DNA from: the human T2T-CHM13v2.0 reference genome, Homo sapiens
NCBI GenBank assembly: GCA_009914755.4
Contig: CP068257.2
Location: 23,008,001-23,072,000 of the forward strand
DNA length: 64,000 nucleotides
Direction: 5' to 3'
Position 1 is the stretch's first letter, and each line of letters starts with the position of its first letter. Below, in pieces: positions 27,100 through 64,000 of this stretch. The notes under the pieces were generated by a model, which was not told the origin of the DNA, searched no databases, and saw nothing but the letters and a program-made list of their open reading frames with translations. The position numbers were made by a program, and so were the translations under genes.

Positions 27100-28152
<1,053 letters not shown>

Positions 28153-30166: not shown

Positions 30167-31069
30167 GCTAACTTTAAATATAAAGATTCAGATAGGCAAA
30201 AATGAAGCAATAGAGAAAAATATATATTCTTACATTAACTTCAAGAAAGCTGGAGAATCTATATTAATTTCAGAGAAAACAACTTCAGAAAAGGGAAAAT
30301 TATGAGGAATGAAGAGAGACATTATATGACAAAATGATTAATTCTTAAAAAACTCATAATAATTAATAATGTGATTGCACTTGAATAAAGCATTAATAAT
30401 TATGATGCAAAAACTAATTAAAAAATGGAGAAGTAGATAAAACCAGTATTGTAATTGGAGACTTCAACAGTCCTCTAGTAGTAATTGATGGACAAGCAAG
30501 CATAAAATAGGAATACAGTTAACCTGAAAAGCACTATTATCAACTTAATTTAATTGATACATTTAGAACATTCCACCACAGGAAAAGCAGAATGCACATT
30601 CTTCTGAAGTTCACATGGAACATTAATTAAGACAGACTAGTTTCTTGGCCATAATGCACACTTTAACAATTTTGTATAAAAATAGAAGCCACACGAAGTA
30701 TTTTCTCAAATCTTAATGCAATTTAACTAGAAATCTATAATGAAAGGTAGCTGAAAAATTCCCAGGTATTGGAAGTTAAACAGTTAGACTTCTAAATAAT
30801 ACATTGATCAAGGAAAAGATCTGAAAATAAATTTTAAAATATACTGAACTAAGTTAAGATAAAATACAACAACTCAGATTTGTGGGATGCAGCAAAATCA
30901 GTGCTTTGAGGTAAAGTTAAAGCATTAAATGGCTGTATCAAAAAAGAAGTAAATAAAATAAACACTCTAAGCTTCTGCCTAGGAAAAATAGAGAAAGAAG
31001 ATACATTTAAGCCTAAAGCAAACAGAAAAACAGAATAGAAATAAGTTAGAGCCTGGGCTATAAATGCAT

Positions 31070-44818: not shown

Positions 44819-45184
44819 AACATTTTTCATGAATATATTAATGAACTAAACTGTAAAGTAAAACTTCCATGGTACACAGGTTGGTTTGGAACTCATCCCT
44901 GCTGCTTCTTTTTCCAGATGTTTCTTCAAAATAGTTATATCACTTGTACTTTCAGTTGGTCATTGAAAACTGCTACATTGTGCTGAATACAGGGAATATT
45001 CAGTGCTCATTTATAAATTTTCACTTAGAAAGTATCATTCATATTACATTAGATAAATTTCTAAATATTGAGAAAACTTGGCTGTTGAGATGTAATTCTT
45101 ATCTATTTGTAAAATTGGATTCTTTCCCAGTATTTATTTCCTTATCTACAGGCATGGTCAACAACAACAAAACACAATCAGATT

Positions 45185-45998
<814 letters not shown>

Positions 45999-48204: not shown

Positions 48205-49490
48205 TTCTTCTTGTTTTAAATTATTATACTTTAAGTTCTGGGGTACGTGTGCAGAACGTGCAGGTTTGTTACATAGGTATACGCGTGCCATGGTAATTTG
48301 CTGCAACCATCAACCCGCCACCTACATTACGTATTTCTCCTAGTGCTATCCCTCCCCTTGCCCCCAACCCCCAGACAGGCCCCAGTGTGTGATGTTCCCC
48401 TCCCTGTGCCCATATGTTCTCATTGTTCAACTCCCACTTATGAGTGAGAACACGCGGTGTTTGGTTTTCTGTTCCTATATCAGTTTGCTGAAAATGATGG
48501 TTTCCAGCTTCAACTATGTCCCTGCAAAGGACATGAACTCATTCTTTTCTATGGCTGCATAGTATTCCATGGTATATATGTGCCACATTTTCTTTATCCA
48601 GTCTATCATTGATGGGCATTTGGGTTTGCTCCCAGTCTTTGCGATTGTAAATAGTGCTGCAATAAACATATGTGTGCATGTGTCTTTATAGTAGAATGAT
48701 TTATAATCCTTTGGGTATATACCTAGTAATGGGATTGCTGGGTCAAATGGTATTTCTGGTTCTGGATCTTGAGGAATCACCACACTGTCTTCCACAATGG
48801 TTGAACTAGTTTACAGTCCCACCAACAGTGTAAAAGTGTGCCTATTTCTCCACATCCTCTCCAGCGTCTGTTGTTTCCTGACTTTTTGATGATTGCCATT
48901 CTAACTGGCGTGAGATGTTATGTCATTTTGGTTTTGATTTGCATTTCTCAAATGACCAATGATGATGAGCTTTTTTCATGTTTGTTGGCCACATAAATGT
49001 CTTGTTTTGAAAAATGTCTGCTTAGATCCTTCACCTAATTTTTGATGGGGTTGTTTGTTTCTTTCTTGTAAATTTGTTTAAGTTCCTTGTAGATTCTGGA
49101 TATTAGTACTTTGTCAGATGGATACATTGCAAAAATTTTCTCCCATTCTGTAAGTGGCCTGGTCACTCTGATGCTAGTTTCTTTTGCTGTGCAGAAGCTC
49201 TTTACTTCAATTAGATCCCATTTGTCAATTTTGGCTTTTGTTGCCATTGCTTTTGGTGTTTTAGTCATGAAGTCTTTGCCCATGCCTATGTCCTGAATGG
49301 TATTGCCTAGGTTTTCTTCTAGGGTTTTTATGGTTTTAGGTCTCACGTTTAAGTCTTTAATCCATCTTCAGTTAATCTTTGTATAAGGTGCAAGGAAGGG
49401 ATCCAGTTTCAGTTTTCTGTATATGGCTAACCCGTTTTCCCAATAGTATTTATTAAATAGGGAATCCTATCCCCATTGCTTGTGCAAAAT
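48205..49490 (-). mobile_element. L1PA-like 3' portion (ORF2 C-terminal ~1 kb plus 3' UTR), antisense
   Basis: The sequence from ttattatactttaagttctggggtacgtgtgcagaacgtgcaggtttgttacataggtatacgcgtgccatgg…tatggctgcatagtattccatggtatatatgtgccacattttctttatccagtctatcattgatgggcatttggg… to …ccaatagtatttattaaatagggaatcctatccccattgcttgtgc is the antisense of L1 ORF2 from about KQWG..DSLFNKWCW to the stop, plus the 3' UTR. The supplied minus-strand ORFs 48514..48795 and 49035..49346 are L1 ORF2 remnants. Confidence 0.9.
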
Positions 49491-49492
49491 TA

Positions 49493-49950
49493 CCAGCCAG
49501 CATCATAATGACAGGATCAAATTCATACATAACACTATTAACCTTAAATGTAAATAGTCTAAATGCCTCAGTTAAAATATACAGACTGACAAATTGGATA
49601 AAGAGTCAAGACCCATTGGTGTGCTGAATTCAGGAGACCCATCTCACGTGCAAAGACACATGGAGAAATATTTACCAAGCAAATGGAGAGCAAAAACATA
49701 ACAAAAAAAGAGAGCAGTTGCAATCCTAGTCTTTGATAAAACAGGCTTTAAACCAACAAAGATCAAAAGAGACAAGGAAGACCATTACATAATGGTAAAG
49801 GGATCAATGCAAGAAGAAGAGCTAACTATCCTAAATATAGATGCACCCATTACAGGAGCACCCAGATTCATCAAGCAAGTTCTTAGAAACCTACAAAGAG
49901 AGTTAGACTCCCACACAATAATAGTGGGAGACTTTGATACCCACTGTCAA
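49493..49950 (+). mobile_element. L1 ORF1-end/ORF2 N-terminal (endonuclease-domain) fragment, sense, directly abutting the antisense L1 above
   Basis: aaaattaccagccagcatcataatgacaggatcaaattcatacataacactattaaccttaaatgtaaatagtctaaatgcctcagttaaaatatacagactgacaaattggataaagagtcaagacccattggtgtgctgaattcaggagacccatctcacgtgcaaagacacat… translates as MTGSNSYITLLTLNVNSLNAPVKRYRLTNWIKSQDPLVCCIQETHLTCKDTH…KEDHYIMVKGSMQEEELTILNIDAPITGAPRFIKQVLRNLQRELDSHTIIVGDFDT, which is the L1 ORF2 N-terminus. Confidence 0.8.
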
Positions 49951-50861
49951 TATTAGATCAATTTGCTGTTATTGTCTATCTTTGCTACCACTGGGCAATT
50001 TTCTTTTTTTCAGAAATAGAAATTAGAAAGCAGTAACTCTTTCCACAGAGATTATGCTCAGTTCTAGGTCATGTGTCTTTTGACCCTTTTGCCTAACATA
50101 AGAAGTCTGTTTTAATGCACTGGAGATCAAGTTTTCACAAAACAACATTGTGATTTCACAAATGCTTTACTAGAAAGCTAAAAATGAAGCAGTGTGATGG
50201 TATTTTATTTTAGATCAATTCATGCAAGCATAACCTTACATGGTAGACTAAAGCTTCATGAAGTCTAGTTTGATTTCTATAACCTGGATATTTAGAGCTG
50301 CTGATTTATGAAGACTAGTTAGAAACCTGAATTTTAGTTATTTTCCCCTCAGGCATTTTGTGATGTACTTGTTTCATGCAGTTGACGTTCCTTGCTTTGA
50401 GAAGCACAGAAATAAATACCAATCAGTCAAACAGATAACCCTGGAAAAATGATATAGATATTTCTCACACAGAGAACAGTGGCAATTGGGTTTCTGCCCA
50501 TTACTGTGTCACAGGTTTTCTGAAATGACTTCCTATGCTGCTCTCCCACCAATGACATTTATAATGGTCTCTATTCTTTCTGAAGGAAGACGCCTGGAGG
50601 ATGTGAGTCCTTTGATTCGAAGAAGCTCACAGTACTCTGTAAGATTCTAATTATAAATACAAAACATTAAAATGTTTTGCCCATTATTTTCCACTATTTT
50701 CACTCCTGTTTATTGAAAACTAATGAGATAATGCGTTTTCAAAGCACACTTAAATTATTGAACTTTAAAATACAGTAACCAAATTATCATACTCCTAAAG
50801 CAATTTTCAATCTTTTTAAAGTATAAAATAGTACCTGAAAAGAGCATAACACTTTTTTAAA

Positions 50862-50950: not shown

Positions 50951-51300
50951 GAATCCAGCCATTCTATTACTGGGTATATCCAAAGGAAATGAAATTGGTA
51001 GGTCTAGCAGACATCTGCACACCCATGTTTATTGCAGCACAATTCACAATAACCCATATATTGTATAAACCTAAATGCCCATCTAATGATGAATGGATTA
51101 AGAAAATGTCATACATATACACAATGAAATACGATTCATCTACAAAATAGATTGAAATCCTGTCATTTGCAGCAACATGGGTAAATCTGGAGGACACGAA
51201 ATAAGCCAGGCACAAAAAGACAAACACTGTATCATCTCACTCATATGTTGAATATAACCTGTTACTTCTTAGGCAATAAATAAATGGAGATTTTTTTTTT
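50950..51300 (+). mobile_element. L1 ORF2 C-terminal fragment (older subfamily), sense
   Basis: aatccagccattctattactgggtatatccaaaggaaatgaaattggtaggtctagcagacatctgcacacccatgtttattgcagcacaattcacaataacccatatattgtataaacctaaatgcccatctaatgatgaatggattaagaaaatgtcatacatatacacaatgaaatacgattcatctacaaaatagattgaaatcctgtcatttgcagcaacatgggtaaatctggaggac… translates as PAILLLGI.PKEMK…DICTPMFIAAQFTI…KMSYIYTMKYDSSTK…ILSFAATWVNLEDT…, corresponding to L1 ORF2 …PAIPLLGIYPKEMKS..RDICTPMFIAALFTIAK…KMWYIYTMEYYSA.KK.EILSFATTWMNLEDIMLSEIS…. Confidence 0.75.
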
Positions 51301-51523
51301 TTACTTACAGCTTTGATAGAGCATCAATGTTGAGCCATTGAAAAATCTGATGGAGCAGAAAGTTTAATACTAAATCTAACCTCTGGCAGATATTTAGGAC
51401 AAAACACCCAGGGTTCTCGAGTTACTTTGGTCTCATAGTGGAATTATAGAGATTATTCTACGTTCTTGAAAAAGGGATTTCAGATGTCATTTTTCCTTTC
51501 TTTGTCTGATATAGAAAGTTATA

Positions 51524-51834
<311 letters not shown>

Positions 51835-53990
51835 TTATATAGGTGGCTAAACTGTCTCATCCTGCTCAACTTATTGATTAAATCCTCCTCATCCTGATTT
51901 TATACTTCAGCTGTCAGTCAAGTTGGGAATCACATGGTTATTCTTTCACTCTACCATGCTCATGATGACTATGTGATTACTGGGTCATTTTGTCAGGGAA
52001 ATTACAATCAGTAAGGGACAAGGATTCATCTTAAATAAACTCTTACATTATTATTTCAGATATTGGTAATAAGCATTTTAAATCTGGTCATTTTGTGTTT
52101 GTGTGTGTACCATCCCCTAATATAATAGATTTCTATTCTAATTATATAGTTAGGTATAATTTTGACAGTGTTCACCATAAAAATATATTTTTAGGTATTT
52201 TTAACTAAAATATTTATATGAATACTGTTACAGCTGGAGGAATCAGGGATAAATCACTTAAATTCTACAAGAAATATATAGGCTTAAAGAATAGAAAGTG
52301 GGGATAATGAAGACTACTTCGTGGCTCCTTCCAACTCCAAACAAATGTTTATAAATACATTATCATAATATATTATAAACATCATATATGACATTATAAA
52401 TAAAATGCACATTAAATAAACATATATATACAGTATACAATACATAATAAAACACAAAATTATGTGTGTCATATATATTTATAATTCTTGATAGGACTGT
52501 GAATTTTGAGGAGCTAAATTAGTGAGTTGAGGATTGTAGGCTATGAAAGGACCCACTCTACGCAGAATAACAAAACATACATTTGAGAGGCCTTGAAAAT
52601 GTTTAATTTTTATGGAATGATATTATAGTGGATTGCTCAGACTCAGAAACTGATGTGATGGGAACTTGCCCAATTATATCTAAAAAGGATAAAGAAAATT
52701 AAAGGACAAGTGTAAGACCTCTAGAAGAGATATTTTATAGTCTTCTTATGGCAGAAGTGGTATTAAATGCCAAAGAATGACTGATCTTTTGAAACTTTTG
52801 TCATTTTTTACAATTATCACTTTTAAATAAAAATTTTATAACAAAACATTTTGAACTTGACTTTGAGGAAGACAAAGTTTGTCAAAAGGCCATATATTTT
52901 GCAATTTATTTTCAATCCATGACATAAAAACATAAAACAACTACTGTGATATTAAGTAAATTTAAGGAGAATCTTGGTGATTGTAGGTGAATATGATTCA
53001 AAATATTTAAGCCACATGTCTTCAAAAGATTATAAAATAAAAGATTTAATAAATTAATAAAGTATTAAGTAAATCAAATTCAAACAAGAACATGATTTCA
53101 GTTTTTTTCTGTAATAAGACAAATTAGAATTGATTAGTGTATTTTGTTGGATGTTTATTTAGCAGGTATCAGAGTATTGGAGGAGAACTAATATCACCCA
53201 GTCCCCAAATAAATATTTTTCTATACTAAGTGTGAGATTAGCTTATCTCTCTGTTACTAATGGAATAGATAACTAGAGGTTCCTATTTCATCAAGCATGT
53301 GTAAGAAAGAGAAATCAGAAAAATAAATTCTCCAATGTTTTTATTACTGAAGTAAAACAAGTTTATATTTAACAACAGCATAATCACAGCAGAAACTATG
53401 CCAAATGCATTTTACTTTGGACACATTGTAATTTTCTATATCCTCACTGGATGAAATCATACTCATCGTTGCTTTTTTGAAACCCCATATGTTGAACTTG
53501 CATATGATGATTCAATATTGAACACACATTTCTTCATAATATATAAATATGATTTCAATATTTTGAAGAAAACACATTTTTTTATTATTTGCATTTGTCC
53601 AATGAGCTGGATACTTGGCATTTGACAAATGTGAAAACTCTATTAAGAAAAGGTAGTAAGCGTGTGTGCCAACAACACACAAAATTATTTATTTAGAACT
53701 GAATATATGTTAGTCACTGTACCAAATACTTTATGGTTTCTCATTAATCTTCAGGCAATTACATGGTGTACTGCAAAACCCATTCTGCTCAACTAGCACT
53801 AACAAACTTGAATTCAGATTAACTATGAGACTAAGCACATCAACACAATAGGCTTATCCCACCACCATATTTGCTTAGACTCATGAGAGATATAGGTCAG
53901 TCAAGAACACAGCAGAGTAAGAGCTCAGGATTTACGAATCCAGTTTCAGATTCCCCAGTCACTCCTAATTTGGGATCTGTGTGATCACCA

Positions 53991-54041
53991 GAAAATTGTG
54001 CACGTGTACCCTAAAACTTAAAGTATAATAATAAAAAAAAA
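53991..54041 (+). mobile_element. Extreme 3' tip of an L1 (~40 nt plus A9), maximally 5'-truncated insertion
   Basis: gaaaattgtgcacgtgtaccctaaaacttaaagtataataataaaaaaaaa is the L1PA 3'-UTR terminal motif (…ctgcacattgtgcacatgtaccctaaaacttaaagtataataa(a)n). Confidence 0.6.
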
Positions 54042-55685
54042 GTAGCCAGAATGGGCATGGGTGAAATAGAGTAGTCATCCTTTCTAAGACTTTGCTGCTT
54101 TCAAAAATACCTAATCACTTAGTTCTCCCACTGGTACCAGGCCAGTTCTTATTTTCTAGGGCAGGTGCAGCTCAACAATAGAATCTTGCAATGAAGTGCT
54201 GGTATTTGATCCTAAACATAGTAGCATAAGCTGGATTCTTATTTATTTTGGGTCAGATATGATGATGTTCTTATAGAATACATTCTGTAAATAAAAATAT
54301 AATAATATGCAATGCAGATGTTACAGAAATATTAAAGCAGTGTTTAGCTTACCAAATATCAGTAAATATCATTTTGTCAACCATGACAAGAAAAACAGCC
54401 TTTTCCAGGTACCCTAAAGGAAGATAGCAAGTATATATTGCAGTCCTTCCAATGCAAAAGGAAATTAAGTTTCTTCCTCCAAACATAGGAATGGGAATAG
54501 AAAGCATGAATCAAGTTGTTTTAATCACCTCGTATTGGAACTGTTGCGGAGTGGGGCTCCTACCCTGGGGTTTTGGTGAGAGCAGAACACATGACCACAT
54601 AACTCTGGACAGGTAGGTTGACAGCAGTTTATTAGGCACTAATAACTCACAGCCTTCTGGAGGAGGATGCCACATGCATGCAGGGCCACAGAGGACTTGT
54701 GCCCAGGAATAGAATAACAACCAGGGGTTGTGAGAGGCAGGCTTTGCAGAATCAAGAGACTGAGATTTCCTCTGGTTTCTGCAGGAGAATGTGAAGAGCT
54801 TGCTTTAGTGACACTGTGGGCTGACAGGGAGCCAAAAACTGCTACTTGGCAATAAGCTGGAACTGTGCCTGATTGCCCTGGTGAGGAGAGTCGTTTGGCT
54901 AGAAGACCTTATCCATGGAAGCAGAGTGGAGAGGGAAACTTGTGGTTAAGCTATCCTAGGCCCTTCCAATTTTACCAGATGTCAACACAGCACATGTATT
55001 GAGCTTTCCTTTTAGGCCATACGTCACACAAGTTTATGATGGCACATCTGTCCCATAATCCCACTGGACATCATAAACAGCTCTCACCATAAGTGGCACA
55101 ACAGAGGCTATTGGTGGAACCAGATTATTCAAGTCATAATAATCAAGTTAGCATCCAGGATCCATCTGCTTTTCTCGTAAGCGAAGCATGGTTGCTGGCA
55201 ATTAATTTTCCTCATTGAATCATTAGTTTTATTAATAATGTTTGATATTTGTTATGGAAGAGATTTGGGGGTATTCTATAGCTTTCTATTACACATGATC
55301 AATTAAAATTGGCAAAAGACATAAGTATTCACTGTCTAACCATAGGTCAGCTATAGCAAAATCCTCTATTCTGATATCTATTTCAATTATGAATCTATGT
55401 ACAGATATTTTTCTGATTTTCTAAATTTTCCTTTCATCGTAGCTATTACTTTCTACCACACAATTACCACACCTTGCATTTTGACTTTCAGCCCTCTATT
55501 AGTACTTCATGTCCTTCTACAGACATTGCAGGTCATCATGTCCCAGTTTCTGATTCTCCCATCAGGCTGTATTACCTTCCTTATACCATTCAGTTGCATT
55601 CGTTTTAGAAGCTTTGGCTCCTCTGCTGAAAATCAGCAATTATATTCTCCAACTTCTGCTTAAAATATATATATATTTATATATT

Positions 55686-55795
55686 TTAATTGTCAAATAA
55701 AAATTGTGTGTCTTTATGGTATACAGCATGATGTTTTGATATATGTATACATTGTGGAATGGTTAAATCCAACTTCTATTTTTAACATGATCTCC
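55686..55795 (-). mobile_element. Older L1 3' UTR terminal fragment, antisense
   Basis: ttaattgtcaaataaaaattgtgtgtctttatggtatacagcatgatgttttgatatatgtatacattgtggaatggttaaatccaacttctatttttaac corresponds to the reverse complement of the older L1 3' terminus. Confidence 0.5.
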
Positions 55796-56930
55796 AGAAA
55801 TTTTCAACAGAACTTTCCCTACAACTAACCAAGAATAATTTATTTAATATCCTTGCATCACAATTTTGTCCGAACTGCTCTCTCCAAGCTTTCTCTTATG
55901 CAAAATTGCCTTTGACATATTGATATGAGGATGTGGCGGTCACTCCTGCTTCTAACACCCCTGTGCAATAGGCTCTTCACTCTACAAGCATCAGTGGTCT
56001 TTAGTTAAAACTGACAAACTAAACAAAACATGCTTCATCTAGTATCAATTTTTTTATTTATTTATCTTATGAAAGCATGTAGACTAGGAAGAAAAATGCG
56101 CTATCCATAACAACAGTGTATTGTAATTTCTGTAATTTTCAAACAAAGTTTCCAAATGTTCCCAAATTACTAAGGTTGGGACACACATCATCAAGAGGGA
56201 AACTGAGTGGGCTCCCAGAGATCAACACAGAGAACTCAAGAGACATTTTGGTTTTTGAACCTCACTAGTTATGAAGTCTTTCAGGAATACTGACTATCTC
56301 CTATTTTCTGATGCAGATGTATATTATTAATATGAGTGATATATCATCTGATTAATACAATTTGCAACAATGAGCACATGTTTATAGTAACCTAGACCAG
56401 ATTCTTACTTATCTTAGATCCCTTAATTAAGAGTTGAAAGAAATGTGTTATCAAGGACCTAATTTTTAGGCATCGCTAAGAAGAAACATAAAAGTATCAG
56501 AAATATTTGTTAGTCACTTCCCTCCTATAATTTGTTTGGCAGTTTTTAATCTTATTTTTGTTGCTTAAGAATTTCCTAAAATAAAATTAAATATACATAT
56601 ATGTTTTCCCTGAATAATTCTGTCTGAAACTCAATAAAATCTTTCAATCTGCTATTCAAATCTATTATTCACCCAAAAACCAATCAGAAAACACATCTGG
56701 TACTTTTTTGTACTCATTGCCTCTTCCCATCTGACTTATTTTCTTTCTTGATCTTTCAATACTCACATATTAGATCTATAATACCACTTGTTTTCCAATT
56801 ATTTCCTCTACACCATTGCCTCTTTTTGTATTTTTACTTCAAATTATTTCTTTTGTTTGGTTTTCATCTCTTTATTCAGATCTCAACACTGGCCATTTCC
56901 TTAGTTCATCTACAAAAATCTCCTTCCATG

Positions 56931-57238
56931 ATTTATTTATTTATTTATTTATTTTTAGAGCTGGAGCCTTGCTCTGTTGCCCAGGCTGGGGTATAATAGT
57001 GTGATCTCGGCTCACTGCAACCTCCACTTCTGGGGTTCAAGCAATTCTCCCGCCTCAGCTTCCCAAGTAGCTAGGACTGCAGGCGCACACCACCACATCT
57101 GGCTAATTTTTGTACTTTTAGTAGAGATGGGGTTTTAACCATGTTGGCCAGGCTGGTCTCAAGCTCCTGACCTCGTGATCCACCCACTTCAGCCTCCCAA
57201 AGTGCTGGGAGTACAGCTGTGAGCCACTGCACCTGGCC
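56931..57238 (-). mobile_element. Full-length Alu (AluS-like) with TSD
   Basis: (ATTT)n-type tail then agagctggagccttgctctgttgcccaggctggggtataatagtgtgatctcggctcactgcaacctccacttctggggttcaagcaattctcccgcctcagc…gtgctgggagtacagctgtgagccactgcacctggcc. The flanks ttccatgatttatt / tttcatgatttatt form the TSD. Confidence 0.9.
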
Positions 57239-58567
57239 TTCCTTTCATGATTTATTAACCTACGCTTGATGAAATTGATCTGTTACTTCAAGGAAAGCTC
57301 AAATAGTCAGCATCTGCCTGTAATTGTGAGAGACCTAATTCTGAAGTCTGTAATTCAGGATCTTTCCAGAGCCTCCCGTAGAGCTTGTTGCTACATCTCC
57401 CCAGGTTCCCCTCTGGCCCAGAGAAGATAGTTTCTGCACTGATCTTCTTTTTCAAAGCTTTTCCTTATCACTAAACTCAATGAAACAGTCATCTGGCTTC
57501 AGAGACTTCCTCTGTTTCATGCAGAAAAGTGATTATTAAGTGATGTGTGCCTTAAAGAGAATTTTATATCTCTCCTTTTATTTACAAAGTATAAGAACAG
57601 TGATAGATGTTGTTTGTTATTGTTGCCTTTTTGTAATTTACATCCTTGGGCCTTTTATTTTCTCTCCTTAAACATCATGTATTTACATCAAGTAAAACCA
57701 GGCACCAACCTTGAGACAGTATTGTAACATAATATTTAATATTTAATTTAGGGAATATGAAAAGAATCTCCACCAAAATCTCAGTCACTAGTTGACCTAA
57801 TGGACACAATTATCTTAAGAAGCTAACTTGATCAATTATTTAACCATATCACTCTTTTTATAGATAGCTGAGGTATGGCATTTTAATAATTAATCAGGAA
57901 GGATACATATAATTTAATATCTATTTTGGAAAAAGCTTTCATATGGGTCTAAAGATCATTAAGCAATAAAATTTAAGTTGAGTTGGTACAACATAAATAC
58001 ATATACATGCTTCAAAGAAGATGGGTGAATTTTTACAGTACAGTGAAAAGAGGAACTGGATTAAGGAATAGTTAATAAGTTTTTCTGCTGAAGAAAGTTA
58101 TTTGGTTCCTATACCCAGAATACCCCATATCTTTATCTTTCATGAAGGCATTTCATCTCTTACTGACAAATCCCAAAGCAACATGTTACGTTCCCATCAA
58201 ATTAAAGCGAAGACCAGAGCTTCATTGACTCAAGAGAGAATCTGTACCTGATCAATGAACTGTCATTTGTATCTTCTAGAGCATATTAAAAGAAAATAAG
58301 GATTCCAACGTGTGACATTTCATAGATTTGTGCTTTTTGTTATAATGTATGTAGATTTCATGAGTTGTATGTACATTGTTTAACATATGCTTTGGAACAT
58401 TGCATTAATTCTGAAATTTAAAATCAGAAGACATGGCAATGGATAAAACATTTATATGCCTTTATATCATGAAGATACAGTTCCAGCTTTGTAATTTGGG
58501 TGACAAATGAGTAATAACTTTTTAAGTCAGTAAAAATATTTCATCTCTTTAGTCGGTGTCTGTGAAA

Positions 58568-58646
58568 CAGAGTGATAGAGAGAGAGAGAGAGATACAGAG
58601 AGAAAGAGAGAGAGAGAGACAGGGGCAGGGAGAGAGAGGGAGTGAG
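58568..58646. repeat. (GA)n polypurine microsatellite
   Basis: gatagagagagagagagagatacagagagaaagagagagagagagacaggggcagggagagagagggagtgag. Confidence 0.9.
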
Positions 58647-58877
58647 TCATGTGTTGCTATATAAGCTATATAACTTACTGTTTCATATATACCAGCTGGG
58701 TTTCTCATAACTACCAGTAGCTTCCATGGAAATTTCTTTTATAGGTTAGTGATATCAGACCACTGCAGTATAACAGTTTTCACTCCCAAATTATTACATG
58801 ACACACTAGAATTTTCACTGGTAGATGTTATAATTTAAGTCAGTATTGATTGTTCTATCCTTTTAAAGATCAGTTTC

Positions 58878-59714
58878 TTTTTCAATTTTTATTACAGGTT
58901 CAGGCAGGACATGTGCAAATTTGTTACAAAAGTATATTGTGTGATGCTGAGGTTTAAAGGACAAATGAATCTATCTCCTAGGTAGTGAGCATAGGTAATT
59001 TTTTAGTTCTTTCTTCTCTCATTCTCTCCCCACTCTTGTATTCCCCAGTGTCTATTGTTCTCATCTTTATGTCCATGTATACTCAGTGTTTAGCTCTCAC
59101 TTATAAATGAGAACATACAGTATTTGCTTTTCTGTTTCTGCATTAGTTTATTTAGGATAACAGAATCAAGCTGCTGCAAAAGCTGATTATATTCTTTTTT
59201 ATGGCCGCATAGTATTCCACGATATATGAACTACTTTTTCTTTATCCAGTCCAGAGTTGATGGGCACCTGGGTTGATTCCATGTCTTTGCTATTGTGAAT
59301 AGTGCTGTGATGAATCTACAGATGCATGTGTCTTGTTGGTAGAACAACTAATTTTCCTTTAGGGATATACTCAGTAATGGAATTGCTGGATGGAATGGTA
59401 GTTCGACTCTTTGTTCTATGAGAAGTCTCCAAAGTGCTCTGCACAATAGTTGGACTAATTTACATTTCTTCTGACAGTGTATGTGTTCTCCTTTCTCTGT
59501 AGCCTCACCAGCATCTGTTGTTTTTAAACTTTTTAACAAAGGCCATTATGACTGTTGTGAGATGGTATCTCATTGTGGTTTTGATTTGCATTTCTCTAAT
59601 GATTAGTAATAATCATCTTTTTTATGTTTATTGGCAGCTTGCATGTCTTCTTTTCAGAAGTGTCTGTTCATGTTCTCTGCTCACTTTTTAATGGAGCTGT
59701 TTTTTGCTTGTTAA
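58878..59714 (-). mobile_element. L1 (L1PB-like) direct 3' segment: 3' UTR plus last ~600 nt of ORF2, antisense. This is the tail-proximal part of a twin-primed insertion.
   Basis: The sequence tttttattacaggttcaggcaggacatgtgcaaatttgttacaaaagtatattgtgtgatgctgaggtttaaaggacaaatgaatctatctcctaggtagtgagcataggtaa…tatggccgcatagtattccacgatatatgaactactttttctttatccagtccagagttgatgggcacctgggttgattccatgtctttgctattgtgaatagtgctg…ggtatctcattgtggttttgatttgcatttctctaatgattagtaataatcatcttttttatgtttattggcagcttgcatgtcttcttttcagaagtgtctgttcatgttctctgctcactttttaatggagctgttttttgcttgttaag is the antisense of …[34 protein letters not shown]…[13 protein letters not shown]… to the 3' end. Confidence 0.85.
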
Positions 59715-61392
59715 GTTCCAAAAAAACTGAGGAAGAGAGACCCCGCCTTAATTCACTCTATAAAGCTAGCATCATTGTGATACCAAAACCTGGCAGGGAG
59801 GCAATGAAAAAGAAAAACTTCAAGCCAATATCTCTGAACACAGATACAAAAATTCTTAACAAAATATTAGCAAACTGAATCTAGCAGCACATCAAAAGTT
59901 AATTCCCCACAATCAAGTAGGCTTTATCCCTGGGATGCAAGGTTGGTTTCCACATATACAAACCAATAAATGTAATTCACCACATAAGCATAATTAAAAA
60001 CAAAAAAATGATCATCTCAATAGATGCAGAAAAAGCTTTTGATAAAACTGAATATTCTGTTATATTAAAAACTTCAACAAACTAGGCATCAAAGGAACAT
60101 ACCTCAAAATAATAAAATCTATTTATGACAGACTCACAGCCAACATCATACTCAATGGGCAAAAGCTGGAAGCATTCGTCTTGAGAACTGGAACAAAACA
60201 AGGCTGCCTACCATCACCAATCCTATTCGGTGTAGTACTGGAAGTCCTAGCCAGAGCAATTGGGCAAGACAAAGAAAGAAAAGGCGTCCAGATAAGAAAA
60301 GAAATAGTCAAACTATGTGTCTTCACTGACAATATTATTCTATAACTAGACAACCCTAAAGATTCTACCCAAATGTTCCTAGACTGATAAGCAACTTTAG
60401 TAAAGTTTTAGGATACAAAATCAATGTACAAAATCAGTAGCATTTCTATATACCAGTAACGTTCAAGTCGAGAGCCAAATCAAGAACGCAGTTCCATTTA
60501 CAGTAGCCAAAAAAGAATAAAATACTTAGGAATCTAGCTAACCAAGGAACTGAAAGATTTCTACAGAGAGAAATACAAAACAGTGCTAAAAGGAATGAGA
60601 GATGATACAAGCAAAAGGGAAGACATTCCATGCTTGGGGATAGGAAGAATCAAAATTGTTAAAATGGCCATACTGACCAAAGCAATTACAGATTCAGTGC
60701 TATTTCTAGCAAACTACCAACAAACTTTCCACAGATTTAGAAAAACTATTCTAAAATTCATATGAAACCTAAAAAGATTCCCAATAGCCCAAAGAGTCTT
60801 CAGCAAAAAGAACAAAGCCGGAGGCGTCACACTGTCTTTCTTCAAACTATACTGCAAGGCTGCTGTAACCAAAAGAGCATGATACAGGTAAAAAATAGAC
60901 ACATAGACCAATGGAACAGAACAGAGAACACAGAAATAAGGCCACTCACCTACAACCATTTGATCTTCGACAAGTCAACAAAATAAGCAGTAGAAAAAGG
61001 ACTCTCTAGTCAACAAATGGTGCTGGGATAACTGGCTAGCTGTATGTGAAAGAATGAAACTGGACCATTACCTATCATTATATATGAAAATTAACTCAGG
61101 ATAAATTAGTCACTTAAATGGTAGAACTCAAACTATAAAAATCCTAGAAGAAAACCTAAGAAATACCCTCCCTGATATCAGCCTTGGCAAATAATTTATG
61201 GCTAAGTCATCAAAAGCAAGTGCAACAAAAACAAAAATTGACAAACAGAACCTAATTAAACTAGAGGACTTTTGTCTAGCAAGAGAAACTATCAACAGAG
61301 TAAACAGATAACCTACAGAAAGGAAGAAAATATTCTCAAACTACACCTCCAATAAATGCTTAATTTTAAGGAAGGAAACATCCTAATATACA
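59715..61392 (+). mobile_element. L1 ORF2 reverse-transcriptase-region segment, sense on the + strand. This is the inverted 5' segment of the same insertion.
   Basis: Translates as …[45 protein letters not shown]…[21 protein letters not shown]…MIISIDAEKAFDK…[29 protein letters not shown]…KEDIPCLGIGRIKIVKMAILTKAI…[21 protein letters not shown]…WCWDNWLA…[31 protein letters not shown]…EKIFSNYTSNKCLILRKE. This corresponds to L1 ORF2 from about …TLPNSFYEASIILIPKPGRD… to …[21 protein letters not shown]. The supplied plus-strand ORFs 59624..59878, 60583..60765 and 60762..60986 are pieces of this. Confidence 0.85.
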
Positions 61393-64000
61393 TATCTTAG
61401 TTTTCAAATTTCTATTTTATTTAAATATGTTGTATTAGCTCTGCAATAAAATTACAAATAGTATTTCATCCTCTATTTTATCTGAAATCTCACATTTACA
61501 ACCAACCTCAAAGGCCCTGTTAAAATGTATCCTTTTAATTTATTTTCTTTTATTCCCATTGGATCTGCTGTGAAACACTATGCCTAAAACTATTTGGGAA
61601 GGGAAAAATGCAAGTAACAACTAACAAATGTATAGAATCTTTATTTTTGTGGTTAGGAAATTTTATTGCCAACTTAATGTTCATGATTCTTGTTTTATTG
61701 TCTGTTAACACACAGAAAGAGTCTTTAAAATGAGAATTTCTATTTTCATTGAAAATCAGTATTAACTGTACTTTGTACCATATCGTGGCAGTCTGTATTC
61801 AACTTACGAATGCTCTGCCTCCTGAGTGTGAGAGATAACAGGAATCCTACTGAGCTCATTATACTACTGGCCAGAGTGATTTGCTTATGGCCAAAGCAGA
61901 TAGATAAAGATATGCAATGCAAAGAATTGTCAGAAAGTCACACAATTAAATAGACTATTGTCATAATGTTATATATTACCAATGATTTTTGTTATAAATG
62001 TAATAATTACTTATTAAAACTATACTGATATACCTGTACACATATTTTTAAGTAATGAAAGCTTTACTCTCCCCACCACACAGACTTAAGAAAGAATTAC
62101 TGTTAAAAGTTTGTTGAATATTTGTACAAACTTTATTTAACTAGTCACCAAGAGAACTAGAGACATAGACATAGAATGACTAGGTAGTTTTAAGACATAT
62201 ACACAGCACACATTTAGGGTATGAATAAATCAACACTTCGGCCCATAACATGGACCAATTGGGGACAATTTTAGGCCATTGTTGCAAACACACACAAAAA
62301 TGAATCCCAGATAAATTAACAATTTTAAAGCAGTAACCATAATAATACAATAAAAAGTCAATAGCAGCTAACGTTTGTTTTCTTCTAGATAGTATTTTAT
62401 TGTATATGTATTAACTCATTTAATACAAACCCACTATGTTTTAAGTGCGATTATCTTGGTGCCATATTTAGTTGAGAAAACTAGGACATGTTAAGTAACT
62501 CGTCCAAGTTCATACAGCTTATAGAGGGTGAAAGCTGATTTAAGAATGATGACACCATAGAAAATTTGGTTCCCCCAGTTTTTGGCCCAAGGAAGAGCTT
62601 CTGTGATGTCTTGCATTTCCCTTTTTGCAACATTCATAACACTTACAGATATTTTACTATATCAGGTCAGCACCTGTTGTACAGATGGTCCAAACTCTGA
62701 CACTCAGAACAATTTCTAACTTATTTTTGATCCCTAATAGTGAGTGACTGATTTTCTTAGTCCCCCCCAAAATTGGCTTTCTAAATTGCCAATCGAAATT
62801 TCAGCAGTATCTGTTGGGCTGTTTATGATTATTCTTATTTTTTACTTTAAATAATGTCTTCTTTTTCTCTCATTTTTTTTCATAGCAATATGATTTTTCT
62901 TCACATATGAATCAGGCTTAGGAATCTTACTAATAAAATATTTACTTCATGTTAAAACTACTTTCCTTTCTTAAAATCATTATTGTTCATTTTGATCCTT
63001 TTGGCTCTAATAACTTAAAAGTGTTCCCATCACATTTTTCGGTATGTGAGCAAACGTTAAATGACATAGTGGGGTCGGTATTTGCAGCCTGTGGACTACA
63101 CCTGTGTATTGTGAAGTCCACTGAATGGACTTCTGGAAGATTCCAAATCCTGCCTCACCATCCCTTAGCATAAACTTAGTGAGGTGGGGAGCTCTGGTGA
63201 TCCGAGGGAAGTCTTCATCCTTTAAGGAGCCGGCAGTTGGGAATGGAGATCATGTCGACTTCTTTTGCTTCCATAACAAAGCTAAAAGATTTGGGGCATG
63301 AGGGTGCATCCAATGTGGCATGTATTGCCAACTTCATAAATGCTGATTATTTCCCAACAGCATCCCAAGAGTTGATGTTCCAGTCATGTCATCTGGGGAG
63401 AGAACTCTGATGAAATTCCGGAAGTCCGTTGTGCTGTGCGTTCTCTTGTCCCTAATTCATCTCTTCATCAGCCTCTGCCAGTGAGATCTCTGGATAACTG
63501 TGCCTTAGAGCTACGGTTGCCTGTGGGAAACAGAAAAGGGTTATCATTAAAGGAGCATCTGTTAGAGGGGTGTTCTTGTTCTGTTTTTGTTTTCTCAGCT
63601 TCTCTATTTGGTGTCCATTCATCACAAGGCAAATTATATTAACTATGTGTTCTTATTTTCTGTATTCTTTATGATCTGGCATTTGGGAACATCAGACCCA
63701 CTATAGACGCAGGGAGAGACTGCCCCTTCCAGGGTTAGCTAATTCTTAAATACAGCAACTTGTGTAAAAGCATGCCTTTCATATGCAAGCCAACCACTCT
63801 CTTTATCTCACCCTCACACACTAAGCCAATATTCTTCTGCTCTAAATCATCCCAAGCCTAGGTATCAGACAACTAGGGACAGCCTCTATCCCCCGAAGCC
63901 CACCAGAATTACTGAATCTAACCAATCCTAACCCATGCACCTTGTCCTGTCCTGCCTTTTCCACAGGAATCCCAATACAGACTCTGACTAAGGCTTCCCT

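What the first reader, a model, noticed from the sequence alone, without database searches (positions are those of the whole stretch)
58878..61392. L1 insertion with a twin-priming-type 5' inversion; inversion junction falls within the same ~20 bp of ORF2
Two L1 segments of the same older subfamily (L1PB/L1MA-like) lie head-to-head. An antisense segment (58878-59714) runs from the 3' UTR tip back to roughly the codons for …[18 protein letters not shown] sense segment (59715-61392) ends at …EKIFSNYTSNKCLILRKE, the same ORF2 neighbourhood as …[14 protein letters not shown]. So the inverted segment covers ORF2 from about …PNSFYEASI… to …IYKELKQ, and the direct segment starts essentially where the inverted one stops. 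A near-zero gap or small overlap at the breakpoint, with the inverted piece lying 5' of the direct piece in L1 coordinates, is the diagnostic signature of twin priming during target-primed reverse transcription (Ostertag and Kazazian model). This is one of the clearest structural stories readable in the window. It is a mechanistically informative insertion, not a novel system.
Basis: partly seen in the sequence, partly recalled or inferred. Interest (0 to 1): 0.55.

Follow-up and report, generated by a model that had tools for sequence, protein, structure and literature searches.

The report
Old L1 insertion with inverted 5' part
This is a decayed, 2.5-kb primate LINE-1 retrotransposon copy whose front two thirds were inserted backwards, the well-known "twin priming" by-product seen in about one in five L1 insertions, so it is real but ordinary.

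Summary
Window 58878-59717 (- strand) is the 3' end of an L1: ORF2 aa ~1059-1275, the 3' UTR, an AATAAA signal and a short A-run. Window ~59716-61371/61392 (+ strand) is ORF2 aa ~497-1052/1062 in the opposite orientation. The outer end of the + piece and the inner end of the - piece map to the same spot in ORF2. Depending on how the decayed ends are aligned, they range from a 9-nt overlap to a 19-nt gap (39 nt at most). Both pieces are equally diverged from an L1HS ORF2 reference (76.4±1.1% vs 75.4±1.7%) and from a contiguous L1PA-type copy in the same window (72.0% vs 71.2%). No further L1 sequence flanks the pair, so the + piece has no 3' end of its own. This is the expected product of twin priming during target-primed reverse transcription. 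Three points stay open. Candidate target-site duplications abut both ends but are no better than chance in these AT-rich flanks (p 0.07-0.44). The L1PB/L1MA label could not be tested because no consensus library was available. No orthologous empty site could be fetched. The phenomenon is already known and common, so interest is low.

The parts
58874..58882 (-). Remnant poly(A) tail. It reads A5 (58882->58878), possibly continuing as GAAA (58877->58874); these last four bases may instead be the start of the target-site duplication.
   Evidence: Sequence read directly. It lies immediately 3' of the L1 3' UTR on the - strand.
58883..59089 (-). L1 3' UTR of about 207 nt, with the polyadenylation signal AATAAA at 58893->58888.
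   Evidence: it aligns with gaps to the 3' UTRs of two L1PA-type copies in the window (same overall layout, divergent middle, lacks a 9-nt CCTGCACGT segment). blastn at normal stringency aligned only its first ~50 nt.
59090..59717 (-). Non-inverted (poly(A)-primed) cDNA piece: ORF2 C-terminal region, aa ~1059-1275 plus the stop codon, with frameshifts and stop codons.
   Evidence: tblastn aa 1066-1272, E 1e-38. blastn against L1HS ORF2 nt: aa 1059-1237 at 75.0% and aa 1254-1275 at 73.4%. 71.2% over 685 nt against the in-window L1PA copy.
59714..59720 (.). Physical inversion junction. It joins ORF2 aa ~1059 (antisense) to ORF2 aa ~497 (sense). TTCC at 59716-59719 can be assigned to either piece, giving 2-4 nt of possible microhomology.
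59716..61371 (+). Inverted (internally primed) cDNA piece: ORF2 aa ~497-1052, covering the RT domain and part of the C-terminal segment. It is contiguous, with no nested insertion.
   Evidence: tblastn E 4e-134. blastn against L1HS ORF2 nt: aa 501-1043, 75.2% over 1631 nt. Pfam RVT_1, E 1.1e-5, on the translated 60087-60344 fragment.
61372..61392 (+). Ambiguous 21 nt. It is either the last part of the inverted piece (aa 1055-1062 after a 6-nt deletion) or target DNA / priming microhomology.
   Evidence: Local alignments to two references run through to 61392, but at only ~64% identity in this tail.
58857..58877 (.). Candidate left copy of the target-site duplication (ATCCTTTTAAAGATCAGTTTC). 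It is not statistically supported.
   Evidence: it aligns to 61380-61403 with two 2-nt indels, p 0.09-0.44. A shorter core ATC(TT)AGTTT gave p 0.12-0.28.
61380..61405 (.). Candidate right copy of the target-site duplication (ATCCTAATATACATATCTTAGTTTTC). It is not statistically supported.
   Evidence: If it is real, the first-strand nick on the + strand would be ...GTTT(T)C/AAAT. That matches the TTTC/A variant of the L1 endonuclease motif listed in PMC12016303.

Best explanation
One L1 retrotransposition event in a primate ancestor produced a 5'-truncated, 5'-inverted copy by twin priming. Shown: the composite holds about 2.5 kb of L1 (ORF2 aa ~497 to the 3' end) in two abutting, oppositely oriented pieces that together tile L1 with no more than tens of nt missing or duplicated. 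Only the - strand piece has a 3' UTR and A-tail. Inferred from the established model (Ostertag & Kazazian 2001, as described in PMC2837659 and PMC12016303): ORF2p endonuclease nicked the window's + strand. The T-rich 3' end primed on the L1 poly(A), and reverse transcription ran from the tail to about ORF2 codon 1059, giving window 58878-59717. After the second strand was cut, its 3' overhang annealed inside the same RNA near codons 1052-1062. It primed a second cDNA that ran upstream to about codon 497, giving window 61371/61392 back to 59716. The two cDNA ends were then joined, with at most a few nt of microhomology, at 59717/59718. The copy has since decayed (about 75% identity to L1HS ORF2, many stops and frameshifts) and has no function.
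For: Opposite orientation and L1 identity. Coordinate adjacency: Z = aa 1052-1062 and X = aa 1059-1066. For two unrelated fragments of a ~6-kb element, agreement within ±50 nt has a chance of roughly 1-2% (inference). Equal divergence of the two pieces from two references, while a control L1PA copy is uniformly 88-90% across the same regions. The + piece has no 3' end of its own: no ORF2 or L1 3' similarity anywhere in 61393-64000, and none in 51200-58877. Independent L1 insertions normally keep their 3' ends. Each piece is contiguous with no nested repeat. There is no long inverted repeat between the pieces, as expected for non-overlapping L1 segments. Piece lengths of ~840 and ~1660 bp are the same order as the germline medians of 571 and 751 bp. 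46% of 5'-inverted insertions have the two cDNA ends within 20 bp, and the base rate is 18-22% of L1 insertions (PMC12016303).
Against: No statistically supported target-site duplication brackets the composite (p 0.07-0.44), and two mutually exclusive candidates exist. The exact gap or overlap cannot be fixed, because the last ~20-50 nt of the + piece align poorly. No subfamily consensus and no orthologous empty site could be examined.
Confidence: 0.88

Rival explanations
1. A conventional 5'-truncated L1 (~2.5 kb) inserted in one orientation, and its 5' two thirds were later inverted by a chromosomal rearrangement (NHEJ or a replication-based mechanism).
For: It would also give two pieces of equal age that are contiguous in L1 coordinates.
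Against: One breakpoint would have had to fall within a few bp of the L1 5' end, because no more than ~6 nt at the internal junction are unassigned to L1 and no flank or TSD sequence is carried into it. Such an exact coincidence is improbable beside a mechanism that accounts for 18-22% of L1 insertions (PMC12016303).
Confidence: 0.04
2. Two independent L1 insertions, or an L1 inserted beside or into an older L1, happen to lie head to head.
For: L1 fragments are dense in this window. A second head-to-head pair at 48380-49960 is not contiguous in L1 coordinates.
Against: The + piece would be a 3'-truncated L1 with no tail and no continuation anywhere in the flanks. The ends coincide in L1 coordinates within tens of nt. 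The divergences are indistinguishable.
Confidence: 0.03
3. Dual priming or template switching used two different L1 RNA molecules of the same subfamily, one priming at each end of the staggered break.
For: Dual priming is proposed as a possibility in PMC2837659. For same-subfamily RNAs the sequence outcome looks the same.
Against: A second RNA would normally be primed at its poly(A), not internally. There is also no reason for its start to coincide with the stopping point of the first cDNA.
Confidence: 0.04

Closest known systems
L1 5'-inverted insertions made by twin priming (Ostertag & Kazazian 2001; surveyed in PMC12016303 and PMC2837659)
   Same: There are two abutting L1 pieces in opposite orientation. 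The 3' UTR and A-tail are on the non-inverted piece only. The inverted piece comes from the L1 sequence immediately upstream. The gap or overlap between the two cDNAs is small. The piece sizes are typical.
   Different: Nothing differs in structure. Because the copy is old (~75% identity to L1HS ORF2), the TSD, the endonuclease site and the exact gap or overlap can no longer be read with confidence.
Older primate L1P lineage copies (L1PB / old L1PA; L1P families active 7-80 Mya per PMC13174262)
   Same: The 3' UTR has the L1P-type layout and aligns weakly to L1PA-type 3' UTRs. ORF2 is clearly L1. The copy is far more diverged than two L1PA-type copies in the same window: 75% against 89% identity to L1HS.
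   Different: The subfamily name could not be tested because no Dfam/Repbase consensus was available. From my own recollection the 3' terminal sequence ...TGTAACAAAyyTGCACATGT.CC...CTGAACCT..AATAAAAnTTGAAAAA resembles L1PB. That is a lead, not a test.
Twin-priming variants with large internal deletions or 5' poly(T) (PMC2837659)
   Same: The general mechanism is the same.
   Different: Here the non-inverted piece is long (~840 bp) and there is no large internal deletion, so this is the classical form and not one of those variants.

Membership tests
LINE-1 (L1) retrotransposon copy | Sequence homologous to L1 ORF2 (reverse transcriptase and C-terminal segment) | tested here: met
   tblastn against human ORF2p (checked against PDB 8uw3_A): E 4e-134 and 1e-38. 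Pfam RVT_1, E 1.1e-5, below the curated cut-off, on an 89-aa fragment.
LINE-1 (L1) retrotransposon copy | 3' UTR ending in a polyadenylation signal and an A-rich tail | tested here: met
   AATAAA at 58893->58888 and A5(GA3) at 58882->58874 on the - strand. The 3' UTR aligns to L1PA-type 3' UTRs. The tail is very short, as expected in an old copy.
Twin-priming (5'-inverted) L1 insertion | Two abutting pieces of L1 in opposite orientation, with the tail only on the non-inverted piece | tested here: met
   The junction is at ~59717/59718 with no more than ~6 nt unassigned.
Twin-priming (5'-inverted) L1 insertion | The inverted piece derives from L1 sequence directly upstream of the non-inverted piece, with only a small gap or overlap between the two cDNAs | tested here: met
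   The outer end of the inverted piece is at aa 1052-1062. The inner end of the direct piece is at aa 1059 (1066 conservatively). That spans a 9-nt overlap to a 19-39-nt gap.
Twin-priming (5'-inverted) L1 insertion | Both pieces come from the same L1 source (same subfamily and age) | tested here: met
   76.4±1.1% vs 75.4±1.7% identity to L1HS ORF2 nt. 72.0% vs 71.2% to an in-window L1PA copy. Subfamily models were not available, so this shows equal divergence, not identical diagnostic sites.
Twin-priming (5'-inverted) L1 insertion | A single target-site duplication brackets the whole composite | tested here: inconclusive
   Candidates abut both ends (58857-58877 / 61380-61405). An alternative pair is 58853-58870 / 61410-61428. 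Neither exceeds chance in AT-rich genomic nulls: p 0.07-0.44.
Twin-priming (5'-inverted) L1 insertion | L1 endonuclease cleavage motif at the tail-side target (TTTT/A, TTTT/G or TTTC/A) | tested here: inconclusive
   The + strand would read ...GTTTC/AAAT, but only if the abutting TSD candidate is real (motif list from PMC12016303). This depends on the unproven TSD.
Twin-priming (5'-inverted) L1 insertion | An empty (pre-insertion) site in an outgroup, with both pieces present or absent together | not testable with these tools
   No primate or mammalian genome collection is available. An exact 29-mer across the junction found nothing in metagenome contigs.
   No Dfam/Repbase consensus is held. 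The Genetics 2022 reconstruction paper holds no sequences in its stored supplement. Only relative age was shown: the copy is much older than the window's L1PA-type copies.

The most novel reading that the evidence does not exclude
The two cDNAs may really overlap by ~9 nt: AAATTTACA-like sequence lies both at 61384-61392 and, reverse-complemented, at 59709-59717. That would make this an ancient example of the overlap class. PMC12016303 notes that the size distribution of these overlaps resembles that of TSDs and speculates on a shared staggered-cleavage-like mechanism. Nothing here goes beyond the known twin-priming framework.
Probability: 0.3. Interest if true: 0.12.

Novelty: already known. 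Interest (0 to 1): 0.07.

Why it matters
It matters little in itself. It is a clean, readable example of a common by-product of L1 integration: a 5' inversion by twin priming. About one fifth of L1 insertions have this form, so very many such copies must exist among the ~500,000 L1 elements of a primate genome. It is useful for annotation, because two RepeatMasker-style fragments should be joined as one insertion event. It also serves as a teaching example.

Tried and rejected
(1) TSD search. I ran local alignments of the flanks under four scoring schemes, with and without positional anchoring, against genomic and AT-matched nulls. Nothing was significant, and two incompatible candidates appeared. 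(2) I tested whether the + piece extends left to 59693 (GGAGCTG matches ORF2 codons 486-488). I rejected this because 59697-59717 fits antisense L1 better, score 28 ungapped against 17 gapped. (3) I looked for intrinsic inverted similarity within L1 between the two joined sites that could have guided the junction. There is none beyond chance, p 0.78. (4) I searched for L1 continuation in the flanks, which would indicate independent or nested insertions. There is none. (5) A scan of metagenome contigs for the junction 29-mer, hoping for host-derived contigs from other primates, gave 0 hits. (6) An Rfam scan of 54000-64000 gave no hits. (7) I looked in the literature library for L1 subfamily consensus sequences. 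The Genetics 2022 supplement holds none, and Ostertag & Kazazian 2001 (PMC311219) is not held. (8) Amino-acid identity to ORF2p (50% vs 40%) at first suggested unequal ages. I rejected this because frameshifts depress the single-frame tblastn identity of the - piece, and nucleotide identities are equal.

Full report
**What is there.** The window is primate DNA. It holds 18 Alu-like matches and several L1 fragments. It aligns gap-free over residues 1-1275 to 8uw3_A, with a handful of substitutions, so ORF2 residue numbers used here are the standard ones.

tblastn with this protein finds two adjacent L1 pieces in opposite orientation. On the + strand, 59702/59716-61371 covers aa ~491/497-1052 (E 4e-134). 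On the - strand, 59701-59102 covers aa 1066-1272 (E 1e-38). A translated fragment of the + piece hits Pfam RVT_1 at E 1.1e-5. The - piece continues into a ~207-nt 3' UTR with AATAAA (58893->58888) and a short A-run (58882->58874). No intact ORF remains.

**Where the ends fall in L1 coordinates.** The test for twin priming compares the outer end of the inverted piece (Z, near window 61371-61392) with the inner end of the tail-bearing piece (X, near window 59717). I used three references.

- Protein: Z = aa 1052 and X = aa 1066, so at most 39 nt are missing.
- A contiguous L1PA-type copy in the same window (reverse complement of 48300-49520), which reads straight through ...[25 protein letters not shown].... 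A local nucleotide alignment puts Z at reference position 199 (window 61392) and X at position 202 (window 59709).
Their translation has zero mismatches to the verified protein, but synonymous sites are unverified. blastn gives the + piece as 59733-61344 = aa 501-1043, and the - piece as 59717-59195 = aa 1059-1237 plus 59158-59095 = aa 1254-1275. Local alignment extends Z to aa 1062 at 61392 after a 6-nt deletion, and puts X at aa 1059 at 59717.

The last 21 nt of the + piece (61372-61392) align at only ~64% and may be target DNA. The honest range therefore runs from a 9-nt overlap to a 19-nt gap, or 39 nt with the most conservative X. For two unrelated fragments of a ~6-kb element, such agreement has a chance of about 1-2% (inference).

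**The physical junction.** Window 59697-59717 fits antisense L1 (17/20 ungapped, score 28) better than sense L1 (score 17, gapped). The + piece begins at TTCCAAAAAA (59716-). L1 has no intrinsic inverted similarity between the two joined sites (p 0.78).

**Same age?** Against the in-window L1PA copy, the + piece is 72.0% identical (350 nt) and the - piece 71.2% (685 nt). Against the L1HS ORF2 nucleotides, the values are 75.2% (1631 nt) and 75.0% (535 nt). By region, the pooled values are 76.4±1.1% and 75.4±1.7%, while the control L1PA copy is uniformly 88-90% over the same regions.

The lower amino-acid identity of the - piece (40% vs 50%) is an artefact of frameshifts in a single-frame alignment. 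The pieces are thus equally old, and much older than the window's L1PA copies. The 3' UTR aligns only weakly to L1PA-type 3' UTRs. From memory, its terminal sequence resembles L1PB. I could not test the subfamily name, because no consensus library was available. L1P families are dated to 7-80 Mya (PMC13174262).

**Surroundings.** No other L1 ORF2 or 3' sequence lies in 51200-58877 or 61393-64000. The + piece therefore has no 3' end of its own and no 5' continuation on the far side of the - piece. Each piece is contiguous, without nested repeats. No long inverted repeat links the pieces, as expected for non-overlapping L1 segments.

**Target-site duplication.** Candidates abut both ends. On the left is ATCCTTTTAAAGATCAGTTTC (58857-58877), and on the right ATCCTAATATACATATCTTAGTTTTC (61380-61405). 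Their core is ATC(TT)AGTTT(T)C. If real, they imply a first-strand nick at ...GTTTC/AAAT, one of the accepted endonuclease motif variants (TTTC/A; PMC12016303).

None of the alignments beats chance in AT-rich genomic nulls (p 0.07-0.44). A different, incompatible pair (58853-58870 / 61410-61428) scores about as well. I therefore report the TSD as inconclusive.

**Mechanism.** The anatomy is the classical product of twin priming as described in PMC2837659 and PMC12016303. A poly(A)-primed cDNA (here ~840 bp) and an internally primed, inverted cDNA (here ~1660 bp) are made from one RNA and then joined.

In that survey, 18-22% of L1 insertions carry a 5' inversion. In 46% of these, the two cDNA ends lie within 20 bp of each other. 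Overlaps have a median of 12 bp. Germline median piece lengths are 571 and 751 bp. Rival explanations each need an unlikely coincidence and together get about 0.1 probability. They are post-insertion inversion with a breakpoint exactly at the L1 5' end, two independent insertions with a 3'-truncated L1, and dual priming by two RNAs.

**Verdict.** The feature is a decayed, non-functional L1 copy made by a well-known and common mechanism. It is already known and of low interest.

Noticed in passing
window 48380-49960: This is a second head-to-head L1 pair. An antisense L1PA-type 3' piece (49483->48427, ORF2 aa 923-1275, 88.9% identity to L1HS ORF2 nt) directly abuts a sense piece (49484/49508-49957, inter-ORF spacer plus ORF2 aa 1-~155, 83.3%). 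The relevant ends are ~2.3 kb apart in L1 coordinates and the identities differ. It is therefore either a 5' inversion with a large internal deletion or two separate events.
   Followed up: partly
window 58569-58646: An imperfect (AG)n microsatellite, 39 copies at 72% matches, lies ~230 bp left of the L1 tail.
   Followed up: partly
They show the window is primate. The nearest lies 1.6 kb left of the finding and accounts for the GC-rich bump at 56900-57350.
   Followed up: partly
window 27234-27799 (+ strand): This is a young L1PA-type 3' fragment, ORF2 aa 1104-1263, 92% amino-acid identity to human ORF2p. It suggests a catarrhine or hominoid genome. It is flanked by Alu fragments at 27109-27232 and 27968-28136.
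   Followed up: no
window 30430-31053, 45169-45536 and 50955-51248 (+ strand): These are older, more diverged LINE fragments. 30430-31053 has 28% amino-acid identity to ORF2p. 45169-45536 has 39-53% across three tblastn segments (50% over aa 1064-1111). 50955-51248 has 51% amino-acid and ~70% nt identity. They are unrelated to the finding.
   Followed up: no
window 59624-59878 (+ strand): An 84-codon ATG ORF runs across the inversion junction. It reads antisense L1 and then sense L1 in frame. It looks like a chance ORF in decayed repeat sequence.
   Followed up: no
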